Below, piece by piece: positions 3,001-17,660 of a stretch of DNA of 64,000 nt. The stretch covers positions 40,300,001 to 40,364,000 of the forward strand of contig NC_047025.1 in NCBI RefSeq assembly GCF_902652985.1, given 5' to 3'. A program made the position numbers. This DNA is from Pecten maximus. Its lineage: Eukaryota. Within the stretch, counting starts at the first letter, position 1, and every line of letters begins with the position of its first letter.

Positions 3001-6000
3001 TACTACGTAAAACTATTTACATCATATTCTATATGTTGAGTCCCCTTTATGGAAACATATTGGGCCAGTCTTCCTCTAGAAACACTTTAATTCCCAAACT
3101 TTAATATAACACAAATTTGTATTAAATTTTCCGAAATAGTTAAAATTCAAACTTTGATTCCCATATGGCATGATAAAACTGCTGTATTTTTTCTCCATAA
3201 TAGATCACAGGATAAGGGTAGATCTACAACATTGGTAGGCAACACTTGGGGGGGAATCTACTGTCAAGTATTTCTGGCTACTCTAATACAAGCAATATCT
3301 TAAAAGCTATGTACTTAAATAGGCTTTATTTACAATACAGGGTCTACTGTAATGTTACATGAGTTCAGTGTTAATTACAGTTGGCAGTAATATCCACACT
3401 TATACAACAGTAGTGGATCAGGCAGATTCAAAATCAGATAAAACTGAGAATATAAGAAAACGAAGTTTAAATGCTTCTCTAATGTAAAAAGATAACAAAT
3501 ATTGAGAGTATAAACAATACACTACTTCAATAACATACAAACATGACGCTATCTTTCAAAAACCCACCACATTTCATTTTCTAGAAAAAAATTAAAAAAC
3601 ACCTGTAGTCAAAGAAACTTAAGTATACATATATTTTTCTTGAGGTACCAATCTACATACAAGTAGGTAAGCCTACCAGATCAAGTTAGATTTTCAACCC
3701 ATATAAAACTCTTTATGTTAATAAAATTTGATTGATATTTTAGTTGAACTTATTTATATAACCCAACAAACAACACAATGTTTCCACAATACACATATAA
3801 ATGAACTAGTTATACACACTTTGACTATGAAAGACGTTAGCGTGGCAATATCTCTGGTAATATGTTATATTTTACTTACAAATTTGATGTTCAAAAACAA
3901 AAATGACAGTGAAACCTTGTTAATCAGGTTACTTCGAAGAAAATGCTTGAAATCATGTTTATTTGCATTGGTGAATGAAAAATCAAAATTTACCAACATA
4001 GGAAGCTGTGCTCTCTGGACAACCACACTAATGCATTCCTGCAAGGATCCTAAGCAAGCAAATCTACCAAGTCTCATTTCAGTTTTTCATGCTATCAAAA
4101 TATAGATTAACAAGGTAACACTCATAAACAATGACCGATAAGTAAACGAATAAAACACTCTTGTGTTTCCGCATCAACTCAATCACTCCTCAAAACATCA
4201 TTTTCATATCATTAAAAACATATCTAAATGAAATGCAACAAAGAATAATGCCACTTCTGTTCGGAAGGTAAATATATTTACTCGTGTAAAACCAAATCTG
4301 GCCCCAGAATACATCTAAACCTGCTTTCTCTTCATCTCCCACAATACATCTAAACCTACTTCCTCTTCATCTCCCACAATACATCTGAACCTGCTTTCTC
4401 TTCATCACCCACAATACATCTAAACCTGCTTCATCTTCCACAATACAACTAAACTTGCTTTCTCTTCATCTCTTACAATACATCTAAACCTACTTCCTCT
4501 TCATCACCCACAATACATCTAAACCTACTTCCTCTTCATCTCCCACAATACATGTAAACCTGCTTTCTCTTCATCTCCCACAATACATCTAAACCTACTT
4601 CCTCTTCATCTCCCACAATACATCTAAACTTGCTTTCTCTTCATCTCCCACAATACATCTAAACCTGCTTCCTCTTCATCTCCCACAATACATGTACATC
4701 TAAACCTACTTTCTCTTCATCTCCCGTAATACATCTAAACCTGCTTCCTCTTCATCACCCACAATACATCTAAACCTACTTCCTCTTCATCTCCCACAAT
4801 ACATCTAAACCTGCTTCCTCTTCACCCACAATTCATCTAAACCTACTTCCTCATCATCTCCCACAATACATCTAAACCTACTTTCTCTTCATCTCTTACA
4901 ATACATCTAAACCTACTTCCTCTTCATCACCCACAATACATCTAAACCTACTTCCTCTTCATCACCCACAATACATCTAAACCTACTTCTTTTTCATCTT
5001 CATCATAAAAAGATATCGTTTAATCACTTAAAATTTTACTAGATTACAAACATTCTCTATGAATTTAAATATGGATGATTATTTCAATGTTAAATAAAAC
5101 AAAATGATTTGCTGCAAGCAAAGGCCTGATGAAAAGAAATTCCTCAGGTAATGGTACACTGGGGTCAGATATAGACTTGCTCGAGTGAAAGTAATAGGAA
5201 TCGCAAAAGAATATTGGAACAAAATGTAGAAACATTAAAATGTGTATAGTGATATTATGAGGAGCTACTGAGCACCATTATGAGTCGCATGTTTATGGTT
5301 TTAGAAGCCAGCAGCTTGTTACACTCCATTGAGTTGTGTATCGGCAGATTATTATACTCTGTCTCTGGGTTTTCATTGGAAAACTCCTGACTGTACACAA
5401 CTGGGTTCATGAGCATCTCCCCGTATGGTCCCTTGAGAGCGATGAAGCTGACAGTGATTGGCTGGCTTGCCTTGCCCTTGAGGACCAGCTGATAAGACAT
5501 GCTCCGTTCAGTGGTCAATGCGGGATTCTTCTGGTCATTATTGATGCGGGCCTTGATCACCCACTGGTGATTAAATGCTGAGAAGCGACTCGTCTCGTAG
5601 AACAACTTTGTTATGAAGTCGTCAGTTCTGTATGGCTTCAGTTGTAGATCTACAAGGTAATAGATTTCATTATCTACAAGGTAATAGATTTCATTATCTA
5701 CAAGGTAATAGATTTCATTATCTACAAGGTAAAAGATTTCATTATCTACAAGGTAATAGATTTCATTATCTACAAGGTAATAGATTTCATTATCTACAAG
5801 GTAATAGATTTCATTATCTACAAGGTAATAGATTTCATTATCTACAAGGTAATAGATTTCATTATCTACAAGGTAATAGATTTCATTATCTACAAGATAA
5901 TAGATTTCATTATCTACAAGGTAATAGATTTCATTATCTACAAGGTAAAAGATTTCATTATCTACAAGGTAATAGATTTCATTATCAATTCATTGTGTTC

Positions 6001-15000: not shown

Positions 15001-17660
15001 TAATCACTGAAAAGCTGGGATACAAATTAATGTATGTCAATGAGCATGCTGCTCATTCTGTCTTCACTACAGTGCTAATTTAAAGAGCGTGTTGCCTACA
15101 ATTAGAAAATAGTGAAGGAAGTCTACTTTTGGAATGTCCAGCAATTTACCATCAGAACCAAAAAGAATGCCAGCAGCTGCATACACGAAACAAGCTCCGA
15201 AGCCAAACCAGTTTTTGTTCATCGCACACAATGTTGCCATGGTGAGGATGGAGAACCCTGATACAGCCTGTGAACAAAGTTCTCGGTTCTTGGGTGGGAG
15301 GAAGAACACCACTAACAGGATACAAACAATAAATATTGAGATCTTATTGGCCAGGGCTGCTGATCCATACTTGTAACAAAACATGAGTGCAATCATAGGG
15401 ACACCGATAGCACCAGCTGACCAGGACAGGAATTTGTGGGCGTTATAGATAATGGTTCCCTGTGGTTGTTCCATGGCAAAACGGAAGATCCCCATGGATG
15501 CTGCACAGCCTTGTATGAACATCCCAATGGCTGCATTGTTGTATTTGTGTTCGTACCAGTAGTATGATACATAGAAGGCCGATATAGCCAGCATCAAATC
15601 GGACAACGAAGTGCTTAGCTGGCGAGGCATGTTCTATTTTACCTGTGACCTGAAAATTAAAATAGTTACAATAAAAAACATGAAGCAGAAAAACAATGTA
15701 GTTGCACATATATATACAAAATGTATACAGAAAGGAAAAAGAAACCCAGCTAGAAATTGTCCTGTGTAGGGGAAATAAGACATAATAGAATGTAATGATG
15801 GTTTGATTGAAAGATAATGAACTTCTGAACAAAAGATGACGGTTGTGAATAAGTGCCTGTTGTTTCATCATCCACCAGGGCATGCACATCACCTTGGACC
15901 TGCCGGGGTTTGTAGCCCTTAGAACCAAGGTTATGTTCCCTTGTCACTATAAAGGGTACCTTCCCCTATATCCCATCCTCACTAGTCAAGAGTCATGATC
16001 CTACTCCTCTTCAAAAGGCAGAATGTAGGAGTAGGTAGATCATAGAAGTAGGCAGATGTAAACCTTGGCTAGTGAAGATGCCTATGACCTAATTGATCCT
16101 TGCCAATAAATGTTCAAGGTATCCATTACTAGACAAGTTACAAGATAAAAATTAAATTCCATGCAGATTAAATTAAAAACCTGATGGAAGCATTGTATCA
16201 GCATACCCTGCTGGAGAGCAGCGTAGGCAGGGTATGAATATTTGTTCTAATACTAATACTGTAATGACCGACCAACCAGAGCATCCTCCTATAACTTCCA
16301 GTTCTCAATCTGTTCAAGAAGTTGTGCTTGCTGTTTTGTGATGTTTCAAGATTTGTTAATGAATGCAATTAATAGTTGCTGTGTTGTGCATTCACATGGA
16401 CTTGTTCAGGCGTTAACAAAATATCGTCAATCCCCCTCCCCCCTCCCCCCAAAGGTGGTAATATATATAATTTAAACCAGGAGGTCCATTGGAAAACGAC
16501 GATTGGAGAGCTTATGGACACCGATGGGATAATGCAAGTTCAAAACCCTGATCCCCGGAAGTATCATGCGAAGTACGTGCAATCCTAATTCCGTGTCCCT
16601 GAAATTGCATTTTTCGAAGACATTGATTGCAACTTTCATAATCAGAATCGAGCTGATTATCACCATGGTGGCAACACGCCATCTCCTCATTAACAATTCT
16701 ACAGGCAGCTTATAAATCAATAACTGGAGCTGTTCAGGACGATCATTTGTCGACTGCATGTCACAATAATAATAACATACCGTACGAGAGACGGTGACAT
16801 TGACTCGGCCTACGTGCTGCTGAGATATGGGTTTGCGATATTGTCATAAACTCCACAAAAGTCATCGCGTGTTGTGACGACAAAATATTTTGAAATATGA
16901 CCAAAGTCTGTTCCAACTTACCTGTATGAGACTGGACTGCACACCTCTCGCAGCAAAACGCGTCTAACACTACAAACATCAGTAGTACTACACGCTCGCA
17001 ATGAAGGTCAAAGGGCAGAGTTTACCTTGGCACACGATCTCTTTCCGGGCTGCAAAGGATTCGTAACGCAGAGATTTTTTGTCAAGCATTTTATTTATTG
17101 CCAAACCCTGTGACAATAACCCGCACAATCCCTATCAACTATAGAGATAATGATATATATATATTTATATAAATATTATAAATATAATTTACAATGCTTT
17201 GGGGGGGTGGGGGTGGGGGGTTGGGGTTGGTTTGGGGGGGGGGGGGGGGGGGGGTTTGGTAAAAACGAAAAAAGGGGTGGTGGGGTTTTAGAAATAAAGG
17301 ACTAAAATTTTGTTATTATGGGGGGGGGGGGGGGGGGGGGGGGGGATAAAATATTTGAATAAAAAAAACTGAAAAAAAAATTCTGGTGGGTGTTTTAGAA
17401 ATAAAGGACTGCGTGCGCTAGGATTTGATGCTTGTTTGATAAATGGGTTGGTATTGAAAATTTCATTTCCGACATAGTTCCGGATGCCTACTCCGCATAA
17501 TTATACAGATATCACATACAATATCTCAAATTTATCCAGTCTATTGTTAAATATTTTAATATTTGGAGCAGATACAATGTCTTCTGATGAGCGGTTCCAC
17601 ATTTTTTAAAGTTCTTATTGTGAAACTATTTTCTCTCCGGTTAATTTGTCCTGTGCTGTT

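What the first reader, a model, noticed from the sequence alone, without database searches (positions are those of the whole stretch)
5255..15630. TMEM276-ZFTRAF1 tandem pair conserved between this invertebrate and human
Seen: a 187-aa membrane ORF lies ~4.9 kb upstream of ZFTRAF1 on the same strand. Established, from memory: the human CYHR1 locus (8q24.3) was split into TMEM276 and ZFTRAF1, adjacent and co-oriented, with an annotated read-through transcript. Inference: this linkage may date to the bilaterian ancestor, implying shared regulation or read-through and giving a functional clue for a nearly uncharacterised membrane protein.
Basis: partly seen in the sequence, partly recalled or inferred. 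Interest (0 to 1): 0.72.

Follow-up and report, generated by a model that had tools for sequence, protein, structure and literature searches.

The report
Scallop TMEM276-like and ZFTRAF1 gene pair
A scallop genome carries a small seven-helix membrane protein gene just upstream of the ubiquitin-ligase gene ZFTRAF1, in the order reported for humans, which is probably an old conserved gene neighbourhood but is not shown here to be a shared transcript.

Summary
On the minus strand, a 187-aa ORF (15630..15067) lies 4,901 nt upstream of the start codon of a four-exon ZFTRAF1/CYHR1 gene (10165..5255, 349 aa). That gene is 96% identical, exon by exon, to Argopecten irradians ZFTRAF1-B-like.

The ORF is a real, conserved gene. 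It has mollusc orthologues, one of which NCBI names "transmembrane protein 276-like". The family has 374 representatives, including bacterial DUF6962 proteins. The predicted fold is a confident seven-helix bundle (pLDDT 97).

- Orthology to human TMEM276 rests on the NCBI name and on my recall. No reciprocal test was possible.
- The human arrangement is recalled, with indirect support from a pig paper.
- Intermediate lineages could not be surveyed. The only evidence is that both genes sit on the same chromosome-scale record in 3 of 3 other molluscs.
- Nothing supports read-through in invertebrates. No fused models were found. Each gene has its own CpG-undepleted 5' patch. ZFTRAF1 has its own ATG exon. 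The proposed 16921→8186 splice would skip half the RING and is out of frame.

The most likely reading is two separate tandem genes forming a conserved ancestral microsyntenic pair, which is a known kind of feature. Interest is moderate to low.

The parts
15067..15630 (-). TMEM276-like (DUF6962-family) coding sequence: 187 codons plus TAG, uninterrupted.
   Evidence: Searches give the ORF. Searches give the homologues. One search gives an AlphaFold2 model with pLDDT 97.3 and seven helices.
15631..15649 (-). Candidate 5' UTR part of the coding exon, behind an acceptor-like ttttaattttcAG at 15651-15650.
   Evidence: Read. Inference only, with no RNA data.
16922..17040 (-). Candidate non-coding first exon of the TMEM276-like gene. 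The donor is CAG|GTAAGT at 16922|16921; the 5' limit is unknown.
   Evidence: One search shows the donor. One search shows CpG o/e of 1.03-1.17 over 16500-17100, against a window mean of 0.45. Inference.
14258..14770 (-). Candidate poly(A) signals of the TMEM276-like gene: ATTAAA at 14770, AATAAA at 14586 and 14258 (297-809 nt after the stop).
   Evidence: Inference.
10166..10330 (-). Promoter-like stretch directly upstream of the ZFTRAF1 ATG. It holds two inverted CCAAT boxes (ATTGG at 10274-10270 and 10242-10238) and a palindromic TGACGTCA at 10230-10223.
   Evidence: Read. One search shows CpG o/e of 1.0-1.3 over 10000-12300. The motif names are from general knowledge, and function is inferred.
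9962..10165 (-). ZFTRAF1 coding exon 1 (68 codons, own ATG). It encodes the first cysteines of the RING.
   Evidence: it tiles residues 1-68 of P0176 with 65/68 identical. Donor is GT.
7948..8186 (-). ZFTRAF1 coding exon 2 (rest of the RING, start of the zinc fingers).
   Evidence: residues 69-147, 76/79 identical, AG/GT; weak RING hits.
6195..6406 (-). ZFTRAF1 coding exon 3 (TRAF-type zinc finger, start of the long helix).
   Evidence: residues 149-218, 66/70 identical, AG/GT. Sina_ZnF at E 0.007.
5255..5649 (-). ZFTRAF1 coding exon 4 with the TAA stop (C-terminal beta-sandwich domain, PF28124 in the database's precomputed labels).
   Evidence: residues 220-349, 127/130 identical; 55 hits, best 98% identity.
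11307..13910 (.). Minisatellite arrays filling much of the 4.9-kb spacer: 11307-11636 (34/67/101 bp), 12219-13000 (29 bp x 27) and 13194-13910 (36 bp x 20).

Best explanation
The stretch holds two separate, co-oriented protein-coding genes of a pectinid scallop.

The upstream gene encodes a 187-aa protein made almost entirely of seven membrane helices. It belongs to the animal branch (called TMEM276-like by NCBI) of the wider DUF6962 family, which also occurs in bacteria. A set of polar residues is nearly invariant from bacteria to molluscs: S10, D11, R50, H65, D170 and H173. By helix order they all sit at the same membrane face, so I infer a small membrane-embedded metal- or substrate-binding site. 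It is possibly hydrolase-like, since the nearest solved fold is alkaline ceramidase ACER3.

The downstream gene is ZFTRAF1/CYHR1. It is a RING, TRAF zinc-finger, coiled-coil and MATH-like protein built like TRAF6 and SIAH ubiquitin ligases.

Each gene seems to have its own promoter, shown by its own CpG-undepleted patch, and ZFTRAF1 has its own ATG exon. In the scallop they therefore most likely work as two transcription units.

Because the same order and orientation is (by recall) annotated in human, the pair is most likely a conserved ancestral microsyntenic pair dating at least to the bilaterian ancestor. I infer, without showing it, that it is kept together by shared regulation of two broadly expressed genes, with read-through as an occasional by-product rather than the mode of expression.
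For: Shown:
- ORF and gene model.
- ZFTRAF1 identity (55 hits at E<=1e-3 among 203 candidates, 31 of 55 named ZFTRAF1/CYHR1).
- TMEM276-like name on the oyster orthologue P0009, at 56% identity and E 6e-86 to the profile.
- Family size: 374 representatives at E<=1e-3 and 143 at E<=1e-10.
- 26 of 93 aligned members match PF22285 DUF6962, best E 1.8e-11.
- One member is encoded 100% identically in a Spirochaetales genome.
- Seven-helix model with pLDDT 97.3 and pTM 0.91.
- Conservation: G47 92/92, H173 91/92, D11 89/92, H65 86/92, D170 83/92.
- Best solved-structure match is ACER3 6g7o, with TM 0.66.
- ZFTRAF1 model at pLDDT 80.7, with 66 PDB matches at E<=1e-3. These include the TRAF6 N-terminal part (1.2e-6), TRAF5/6 RING (TM 0.74-0.76 over the target), SIAH1 and SPOP MATH.
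- Two separate CpG-undepleted patches at the two 5' ends, with depleted gene bodies.
- Same chromosome-scale record for both genes in 3 of 3 other molluscs.

Inferred:
- Ancestry of the linkage. A chance co-oriented adjacency of two given genes among some 20-30 thousand genes is of the order of 1e-4 (my own estimate).
- Pairs of unrelated genes that stay neighbours are taken as ancestral in Irimia et al. 2012 (PMC3514665, passages seen).
Against: - P0001 itself has no Pfam or NCBIfam match at E<=1.
- No named vertebrate TMEM276 was compared.
- The human arrangement comes from no call.
- Adjacency outside this window was not seen in any species.
- The ACER3 match is weak (E 0.014, with 0 matches at E<=1e-3) and generic seven-helix proteins follow closely. 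The profile finds no PDB relative by sequence (best E 0.82).
- The transcript ends, promoters and the 5' exon are inferred from sequence alone.
- The CpG-undepleted patch upstream of ZFTRAF1 also covers CG-bearing minisatellites (11307-11636), so part of it may be repeat composition rather than promoter.
Confidence: 0.6

Rival explanations
1. The two genes form one expression unit: a shared 5' exon near 16.9-17.0 kb, or read-through past the TMEM276-like stop, supplies ZFTRAF1 transcripts (bicistronic or fused).
For: - The genes are co-oriented and only 4.9 kb apart.
- There is a good donor at 16922|16921.
- The pig annotation gives a gene called TMEM276 a TRAF zinc-finger signature, as a fused model would (PMC10376189, passages).
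- A human read-through locus is recalled.
Against: - ZFTRAF1 exon 1 has its own ATG, and its 68 codons match the A. irradians protein 65/68.
- Promoter-like motifs and a CpG-undepleted patch lie directly upstream of it.
- Splicing 16922 to 8186 would drop exon 1 and the first RING cysteines. The only ATG of that 5' exon (16979) reaches the donor in phase 1, whereas exon 2 starts in phase 0.
- 0 of 55 ZFTRAF1 hits contain a TMEM276-like part.
- Of the 150 listed TMEM276-like hits, the 6 longest and 15 fragments that I read carry no ZFTRAF1 part. The short ones run into intron-like sequence instead.
- Poly(A) signals lie 297-809 nt after the TMEM276-like stop.
Confidence: 0.12
2. The linkage is ancestral but neutral. 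The pair has simply not yet been broken in the slowly rearranging scallop and in the human lineage, and it says nothing about function.
For: - Molluscs keep much ancestral linkage.
- The spacer is filled with fast-evolving minisatellites rather than visibly conserved sequence.
- No fused forms were found anywhere.
Against: Surviving as direct, co-oriented neighbours in two lineages separated since the bilaterian ancestor is rare for unconstrained pairs. Irimia et al. 2012 report only 595 such non-paralogous pairs across metazoans and find excess co-expression among them (PMC3514665, passages).
Confidence: 0.18
3. The resemblance to the human locus is coincidental. The 187-aa protein is a DUF6962-family member but not the orthologue of human TMEM276, or the two genes became neighbours independently.
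For: - No reciprocal test could be run.
- P0001 has no curated family match of its own.
- The family is large and old, with bacterial members.
Against: - NCBI names the oyster orthologue TMEM276-like.
- Each mollusc species named shows one protein only.
- Chance co-oriented adjacency is of the order of 1e-4 (my own estimate).
Confidence: 0.1

Closest known systems
Human TMEM276 / ZFTRAF1 (formerly CYHR1) locus with its annotated read-through gene (recalled, from no call)
   Same: A small multi-helix membrane protein gene lies directly upstream of, and co-oriented with, ZFTRAF1. NCBI applies the TMEM276 name to the oyster orthologue and the ZFTRAF1 name to the scallop protein.
   Different: In the scallop there is no sign of fused or read-through products, and ZFTRAF1 has its own start exon and promoter-like patch. 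The human gene structure was not examined here.
Conserved ancestral microsyntenic pairs (CAMPs) of Irimia et al. 2012, PMC3514665
   Same: Two unrelated genes kept as neighbours over very long evolutionary distances. Co-regulation is one proposed cause.
   Different: That paper's criterion (conservation in at least 4 of 11 lineages) was not tested here. CYHR1 does not occur in its main text (0 occurrences), and its supplementary tables could not be seen.
Pfam DUF6962 (PF22285)
   Same: About 190 residues and seven helices. 26 of 93 relatives of the scallop protein match the model, and Atlas neighbours include bacterial DUF6962 clusters.
   Different: The scallop protein itself does not reach the model at E<=1. 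The family has no known function, and no paper in the library mentions it.
Alkaline ceramidase ACER3 (PDB 6g7o) and related seven-helix membrane hydrolases
   Same: Best structural match of the model, with TM 0.66 over the query. His and Asp residues are conserved near one membrane face.
   Different: E is only 0.014 and identity 10%, with no sequence-level relation. The scallop protein is about half the size. The three-histidine zinc site of ACER3 (recalled) has at most two conserved histidines here.
TRAF6 / TRAF5 and SIAH1 RING E3 ligases
   Same: The ZFTRAF1 model has a RING plus zinc fingers like TRAF6 (E 1.2e-6), a long helix, and a C-terminal beta-sandwich like the SIAH substrate-binding and MATH domains.
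   Different: It is a separate family with its own C-terminal domain label (PF28124). Only weak direct Pfam hits to zf-TRAF and Sina models were found.

Membership tests
ZFTRAF1 / CYHR1 | Best database relatives are named ZFTRAF1/CYHR1 and share the family-specific C-terminal domain. | tested here: met
   using exon 4 alone: 55 hits, all with PF28124, and 31 of 55 named ZFTRAF1/CYHR1. The best is 98% identical (A. irradians, 349 aa).
ZFTRAF1 / CYHR1 | Complete gene: RING, TRAF-type zinc fingers and C-terminal domain in one open, spliceable model. | tested here: met
   the four exons tile residues 1-68, 69-147, 149-218 and 220-349 of P0176, 334 of 347 identical, all GT-AG. Searches give the fold of P0176. 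The exons were compared one by one, and the joined model was not searched.
TMEM276 (animal branch of DUF6962) | Orthologues carry the TMEM276 name in a curated or pipeline annotation. | tested here: met
   P0009 'transmembrane protein 276-like [Crassostrea virginica]', 56% identical to P0001 over 98% of its length. Other named molluscs are 'uncharacterized' or 'hypothetical'.
TMEM276 (animal branch of DUF6962) | Reciprocal best hit with human or vertebrate TMEM276. | not testable with these tools
One unnamed hit (P0113, E 6e-15) looks vertebrate-like to me by recall only and was not followed.
Pfam DUF6962 (PF22285) | Match to the Pfam model at or above its cut-off. | tested here: not met
   P0001 has no match at E<=1. 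Relatives match in 26 of 93 cases at E<=0.01, best 1.8e-11. The link is therefore transitive, through the profile search.
Conserved ancestral microsyntenic pair (Irimia et al. 2012) | Neighbours (four or fewer intervening genes) in at least 4 of 11 major metazoan lineages. | not testable with these tools
   No animal genome collection was open. Seen directly: one lineage (this window). Chromosome-level only: 3 of 3 further molluscs. Human: recalled.
Read-through / conjoined gene | Transcripts or protein models that join the two genes. | tested here: not met
   0 of 55 ZFTRAF1 hits hold a TMEM276-like part. Among the 150 listed TMEM276-like hits, the 6 of 267 aa or more and 15 fragments were read, and none carries a ZFTRAF1 part. 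RNA data were not available, so transcripts themselves remain untested.
Seven-helix membrane hydrolases (ACER3-like) | Significant structural match and a conserved His/Asp metal site. | tested here: inconclusive
   best match 6g7o, E 0.014, TM 0.66, with none at E<=1e-3. D11, H65, D170 and H173 are conserved in 83-91 of 92.

The most novel reading that the evidence does not exclude
The neighbourhood is kept because the two proteins work together. The TMEM276-like seven-helix protein, with its conserved Asp/His site, would be the membrane partner, anchor or regulator of the soluble TRAF/SIAH-like ligase ZFTRAF1. This coupling would have been inherited from the bilaterian ancestor, and mammals would sometimes hard-wire it through read-through transcripts. 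It would give a first functional handle on both DUF6962 and ZFTRAF1.
Probability: 0.12. Interest if true: 0.6.

Novelty: new member of a known kind. Interest (0 to 1): 0.33.

Why it matters
Neither protein has an established function. TMEM276 appears in only three papers in the searched library, none functional and one of them a typo, and DUF6962 appears in none. A gene neighbourhood that has survived since the bilaterian ancestor would be a cheap, testable lead that the membrane protein and the ligase are co-regulated or act together.

This work adds several points:
- TMEM276-like proteins belong to a family reaching into bacteria.
- They are predicted to fold as a compact seven-helix bundle.
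- They keep an Asp/His set that can be mutated.

However, conserved microsyntenic pairs are a known and numerous class (595 in PMC3514665), and the conservation itself was not demonstrated here.

Tried and rejected
- Bacterial gene context as a functional clue. Two alignments were too diverse for the locus finder. A single protein gave one locus, with an MFS transporter 34 nt downstream and an AcrB-type pump on the other strand. One locus supports no inference.
- Complex prediction of P0176 with P0001: no verdict (score 0.00). It counts neither for nor against binding.
- Atlas look-alikes gave arthropod 'hypothetical' clusters, an automatic 'TMEM147' label that I do not trust, and bacterial DUF6962 clusters. 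No TMEM276 label or chordate cluster appeared.
- PDB sequence search with the family profile: nothing, best E 0.82.
- Fused forms: long hits P0130, P0100 and P0156 have low-complexity N-terminal extensions, and P0111 has a thioredoxin-fold domain. None is ZFTRAF1.
- Hits covering only profile positions 1-75 were checked as possible splice fusions. They run into intron-like sequence after a conserved boundary instead.
- tRNA and Rfam scans of 3000-19000: nothing.
- A literature search for CYHR1 together with read-through or microsynteny terms was badly posed and returned nothing relevant.
- A Pinctada locus-tag distance (024830 vs 017668) was considered as evidence against adjacency. I rejected it because the tags are evidently not in genome order.
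Full report
**What is in the window**

On the minus strand an ATG-to-TAG frame of 187 codons runs from 15630 to 15067. On the same strand, 4,901 nt further downstream, a ZFTRAF1 gene begins. I read four coding exons from the sequence: 10165..9962, 8186..7948, 6406..6195 and 5649..5255. All have GT-AG borders, with ATG at 10165 and TAA at 5257-5255. Together they make 1,050 nt, or 349 codons with the stop.

**Identity of the downstream gene**

The exons were searched and compared one by one. No search was made with the joined model, so statements about the whole protein rest on the database protein P0176.

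Exon 4 alone (130 aa, searched against longer proteins) found 55 proteins at E<=1e-3 among 203 candidates.
- All 55 carry the precomputed label PF28124.
- 31 of 55 are named ZFTRAF1, 'cysteine and histidine-rich protein 1' or CYR1B. The rest are unnamed or 'hypothetical', and none bears another family's name.
- The best is 'zinc finger TRAF-type-containing protein 1-B-like [Argopecten irradians]' (P0176), 98% identical and 349 aa long.
- The hits come from molluscs, annelids, a brachiopod, a nemertean, arthropods, echinoderms and a hemichordate.

My four exons tile P0176 at residues 1-68, 69-147, 149-218 and 220-349, with 65/68, 76/79, 66/70 and 127/130 identical. The two missing residues are the split codons. 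The window therefore comes from a pectinid scallop close to, but not identical with, A. irradians.

A model of P0176 built on 41 relatives (pLDDT 80.7, pTM 0.68) has these parts:
- a disordered N-terminus (residues 1-43);
- a RING and zinc fingers;
- a long helix (182-210);
- a beta-sandwich (215-345).

It has 66 PDB matches at E<=1e-3. These include the TRAF6 N-terminal part (1.2e-6), the TRAF5/6 RING (TM 0.74-0.76 over the target), SIAH1 and the SPOP MATH domain. Direct Pfam hits are weak: zf-TRAF at E 1.5e-4 on P0176, and RING and Sina models at E 0.005-0.04 on single exons. ZFTRAF1 thus works like a TRAF/SIAH-type RING ligase. That is an architectural inference, not a test.

**Identity of the upstream ORF**

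P0001 has no Pfam or NCBIfam match at E<=1.

A word-seeded search found 7 relatives among 116 candidates. The top two are a 90%-identical unnamed protein and an 89%-identical 'uncharacterized protein' of the scallop Ylistrum balloti.

A profile of these found 30 proteins among 8,000 scored candidates. All that carry names are molluscs. One is named by NCBI 'transmembrane protein 276-like [Crassostrea virginica]' (P0009, 56% identity, 98% coverage). Each named species appears once.

A profile of 27 mollusc sequences, scored against 1.84 billion representatives, gave 374 proteins at E<=1e-3, 143 at E<=1e-10 and 32 at E<=1e-30.
- Of 93 full-length members that I aligned, 26 match Pfam DUF6962 (PF22285) at E<=0.01, best 1.8e-11.
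- One member (P0115) is encoded letter for letter in a Spirochaetales genome.
- Atlas neighbours are arthropod 'hypothetical' clusters and bacterial DUF6962 clusters.

The ORF is therefore a genuine member of an old family with animal and bacterial branches. The link to the TMEM276 name rests on NCBI's naming of the oyster orthologue.

A reciprocal test against the human protein could not be made. One unnamed hit (P0113, 197 aa, E 6e-15) looks to me like a tetrapod TMEM276. That is recall only. Because it is unnamed I did not follow it, and the point stays unchecked.

**What the membrane protein looks like**

With the 93-sequence alignment, AlphaFold2 gives a very confident model: pLDDT 97.3, pTM 0.91, and 185 of 187 residues at 90 or above. 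It has seven helices (5-27, 31-52, 60-87, 91-110, 113-137, 141-157, 168-186) joined by very short loops.

Conservation over 92 sequences (P0113 left out) is:

| Residue | Conserved |
|---|---|
| G47 | 92/92 |
| H173 | 91/92 |
| D11 | 89/92 |
| H65 | 86/92 |
| S10 | 84/92 |
| D170 | 83/92 |
| R50 | 78/92 (plus 10 K) |

. D11, H65 and D170/H173 lie at the N-terminal ends of helices 1, 3 and 7, and R50 lies at the C-terminal end of helix 2. By alternation of the helices they share one membrane face.

The best PDB match is human alkaline ceramidase 3 (6g7o, E 0.014, TM 0.66 over the query). GPCRs and microbial rhodopsins follow at TM 0.42-0.61, and nothing reaches E<=1e-3. The family profile finds no PDB relative by sequence.

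My reading is a compact seven-helix protein with a polar Asp/His site, possibly a metal-dependent hydrolase-like or small-molecule-binding protein. Confidence is low.

**One unit or two?**

Several features point to two units.
- ZFTRAF1 exon 1 has its own ATG and is conserved.
- Directly upstream lie two inverted CCAAT boxes (10274-10270, 10242-10238) and a TGACGTCA palindrome (10230-10223) (the motif names are from general knowledge).
- The window is CpG-depleted overall (o/e 0.45), and so are both gene bodies (0.3-0.6). Two patches are not depleted. One is 10000-12300 (o/e 1.0-1.3), over ZFTRAF1 exon 1 and its upstream region. The other is 16500-17100 (1.03-1.17), over the candidate first exon of the upstream gene with its CAG|GTAAGT donor at 16922|16921. 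In genomes with gene-body methylation such patches usually mark unmethylated 5' ends (general knowledge). Part of the first patch overlaps a CG-bearing minisatellite, which weakens that reading somewhat.
- Poly(A) signals follow the upstream gene's stop at 297, 481 and 809 nt.

The only ATG of that 5' exon (16979) reaches the donor after 58 nt, in phase 1, while exon 2 begins in phase 0. That junction would therefore not yield ZFTRAF1.

In the databases, 0 of 55 ZFTRAF1 hits contain a TMEM276-like part (best E 4.9). Of the 150 listed TMEM276-like hits I did not screen all for a ZFTRAF1 part. I read the 6 hits of 267 aa or more, and none carries one:
- P0111 has a thioredoxin-fold domain;
- P0074 repeats part of its own domain (two matched stretches);
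- P0130, P0100, P0156 and P0051 have low-complexity or unassigned extensions.

I also read 15 fragments. The hits that cover only the first about 75 positions end in intron-like sequence. This shows an intron at that point in other lineages, not a fusion. The 224 weaker hits were not listed, so partial fusions among them cannot be excluded. No RNA data were available.

**Is the neighbourhood conserved?**

This is the core of the finding, and it could not be tested directly. 

The one indirect handle is the 'longest_contig' value. For Pinctada imbricata (63,253,413), Mya arenaria (75,813,843) and Gigantopelta aegis (59,883,994) the TMEM276-like protein and ZFTRAF1 show the same value. That is 3 of 3 species for which both values exist. 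It means the same chromosome-scale record, not adjacency.

The human arrangement (adjacent, co-oriented, with a named read-through locus) agrees with my own recall but comes from no call. [quoted passage not shown] For a seven-helix protein that only makes sense if the mammalian gene model includes ZFTRAF1 exons.

If orthology and the human order are accepted, chance adjacency in the same orientation is of the order of 1e-4 (my estimate), so common ancestry is the reasonable reading.

**Comparison with what is known**

Conserved neighbour pairs of unrelated genes are a described class. Irimia et al. 2012 report 595 such pairs across metazoans, with shorter spacers and excess co-expression. They attribute them to co-regulation or to regulatory blocks (PMC3514665, passages seen). 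CYHR1 does not occur in that paper's main text, and its supplementary tables could not be seen and may bear on novelty.

In the library, TMEM276 appears in three papers:
- the pig paper;
- a transcriptome list (PMC13290811, passage seen);
- a typo for another gene (PMC5503638, passage seen).

DUF6962 appears in none. For ZFTRAF1 I saw only the search listing and the start of an abstract (PMC12997640), which mentions its discovery in a yeast two-hybrid screen with galectin-3.

**Verdict**

The claim of a bilaterian-old tandem pair is plausible (I put it near 0.6-0.65) but not demonstrated. The read-through or shared-exon idea is not supported for the scallop.

This is a probable new member of a known kind (a conserved microsyntenic pair). 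It comes with a useful side result: TMEM276-like proteins are the animal branch of DUF6962, predicted as seven-helix proteins with a conserved Asp/His set.

Noticed in passing
window 5648-5986: A 24-bp minisatellite (14 copies, 98% matches) fills the end of ZFTRAF1 intron 3 and stops exactly at exon 4. On the minus strand every copy carries the same CCTTGTAG|AT acceptor-like end as the real splice site, giving 14 potential cryptic acceptors.
   Followed up: partly
window 4303-4999, 22546-26175, 26909-28437, 32824-34658, 41581-43290: Long tandem arrays, seen as a 35-bp repeat and as stop-free repetitive frames hundreds of codons long. The window is very repeat-rich.
   Followed up: no
window 18864-19629 (-), 21383-21727 (-): Retroelement remains upstream of the TMEM276-like gene: two reverse-transcriptase pieces (RVT_1, E 2e-14 and 2e-9) and a weak integrase-core hit (E 0.0026).
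   Followed up: partly
window 41294-41605 (+): An exon-like frame with a Prefoldin-subunit match (PF02996, E 8.7e-11). An acidic frame at 47629-47979 (+) may belong to the same gene. The gene was not modelled.
   Followed up: partly
window 18000-18700: A patch with CpG o/e of 1.3-2.6, far above the window mean of 0.45. Its nature was not examined.
   Followed up: no
L001 6001-6585 (+), Spirochaetales bacterium MAG JABTUL010000001.1: A bacterial member of the family (P0115, 100% identity). An MFS transporter gene starts 34 nt downstream on the same strand, and an AcrB-type pump lies on the other strand. Only one locus was obtained.
   Followed up: partly
protein P0111 (373 aa, unnamed): A thioredoxin-fold domain (PF00085, E 1e-8, residues 11-98) is fused in front of a TMEM276-like domain (residues 192-371). 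It is a single example from an unknown organism.
   Followed up: partly
proteins P0069, P0095, P0098, P0103, P0109, P0114, P0134: Many database fragments of the family stop matching after about 63-80 profile positions (after 72-74 in four of them) and continue as nonsense. This points to a conserved intron there in other lineages, whereas the scallop coding sequence is uninterrupted.
   Followed up: partly
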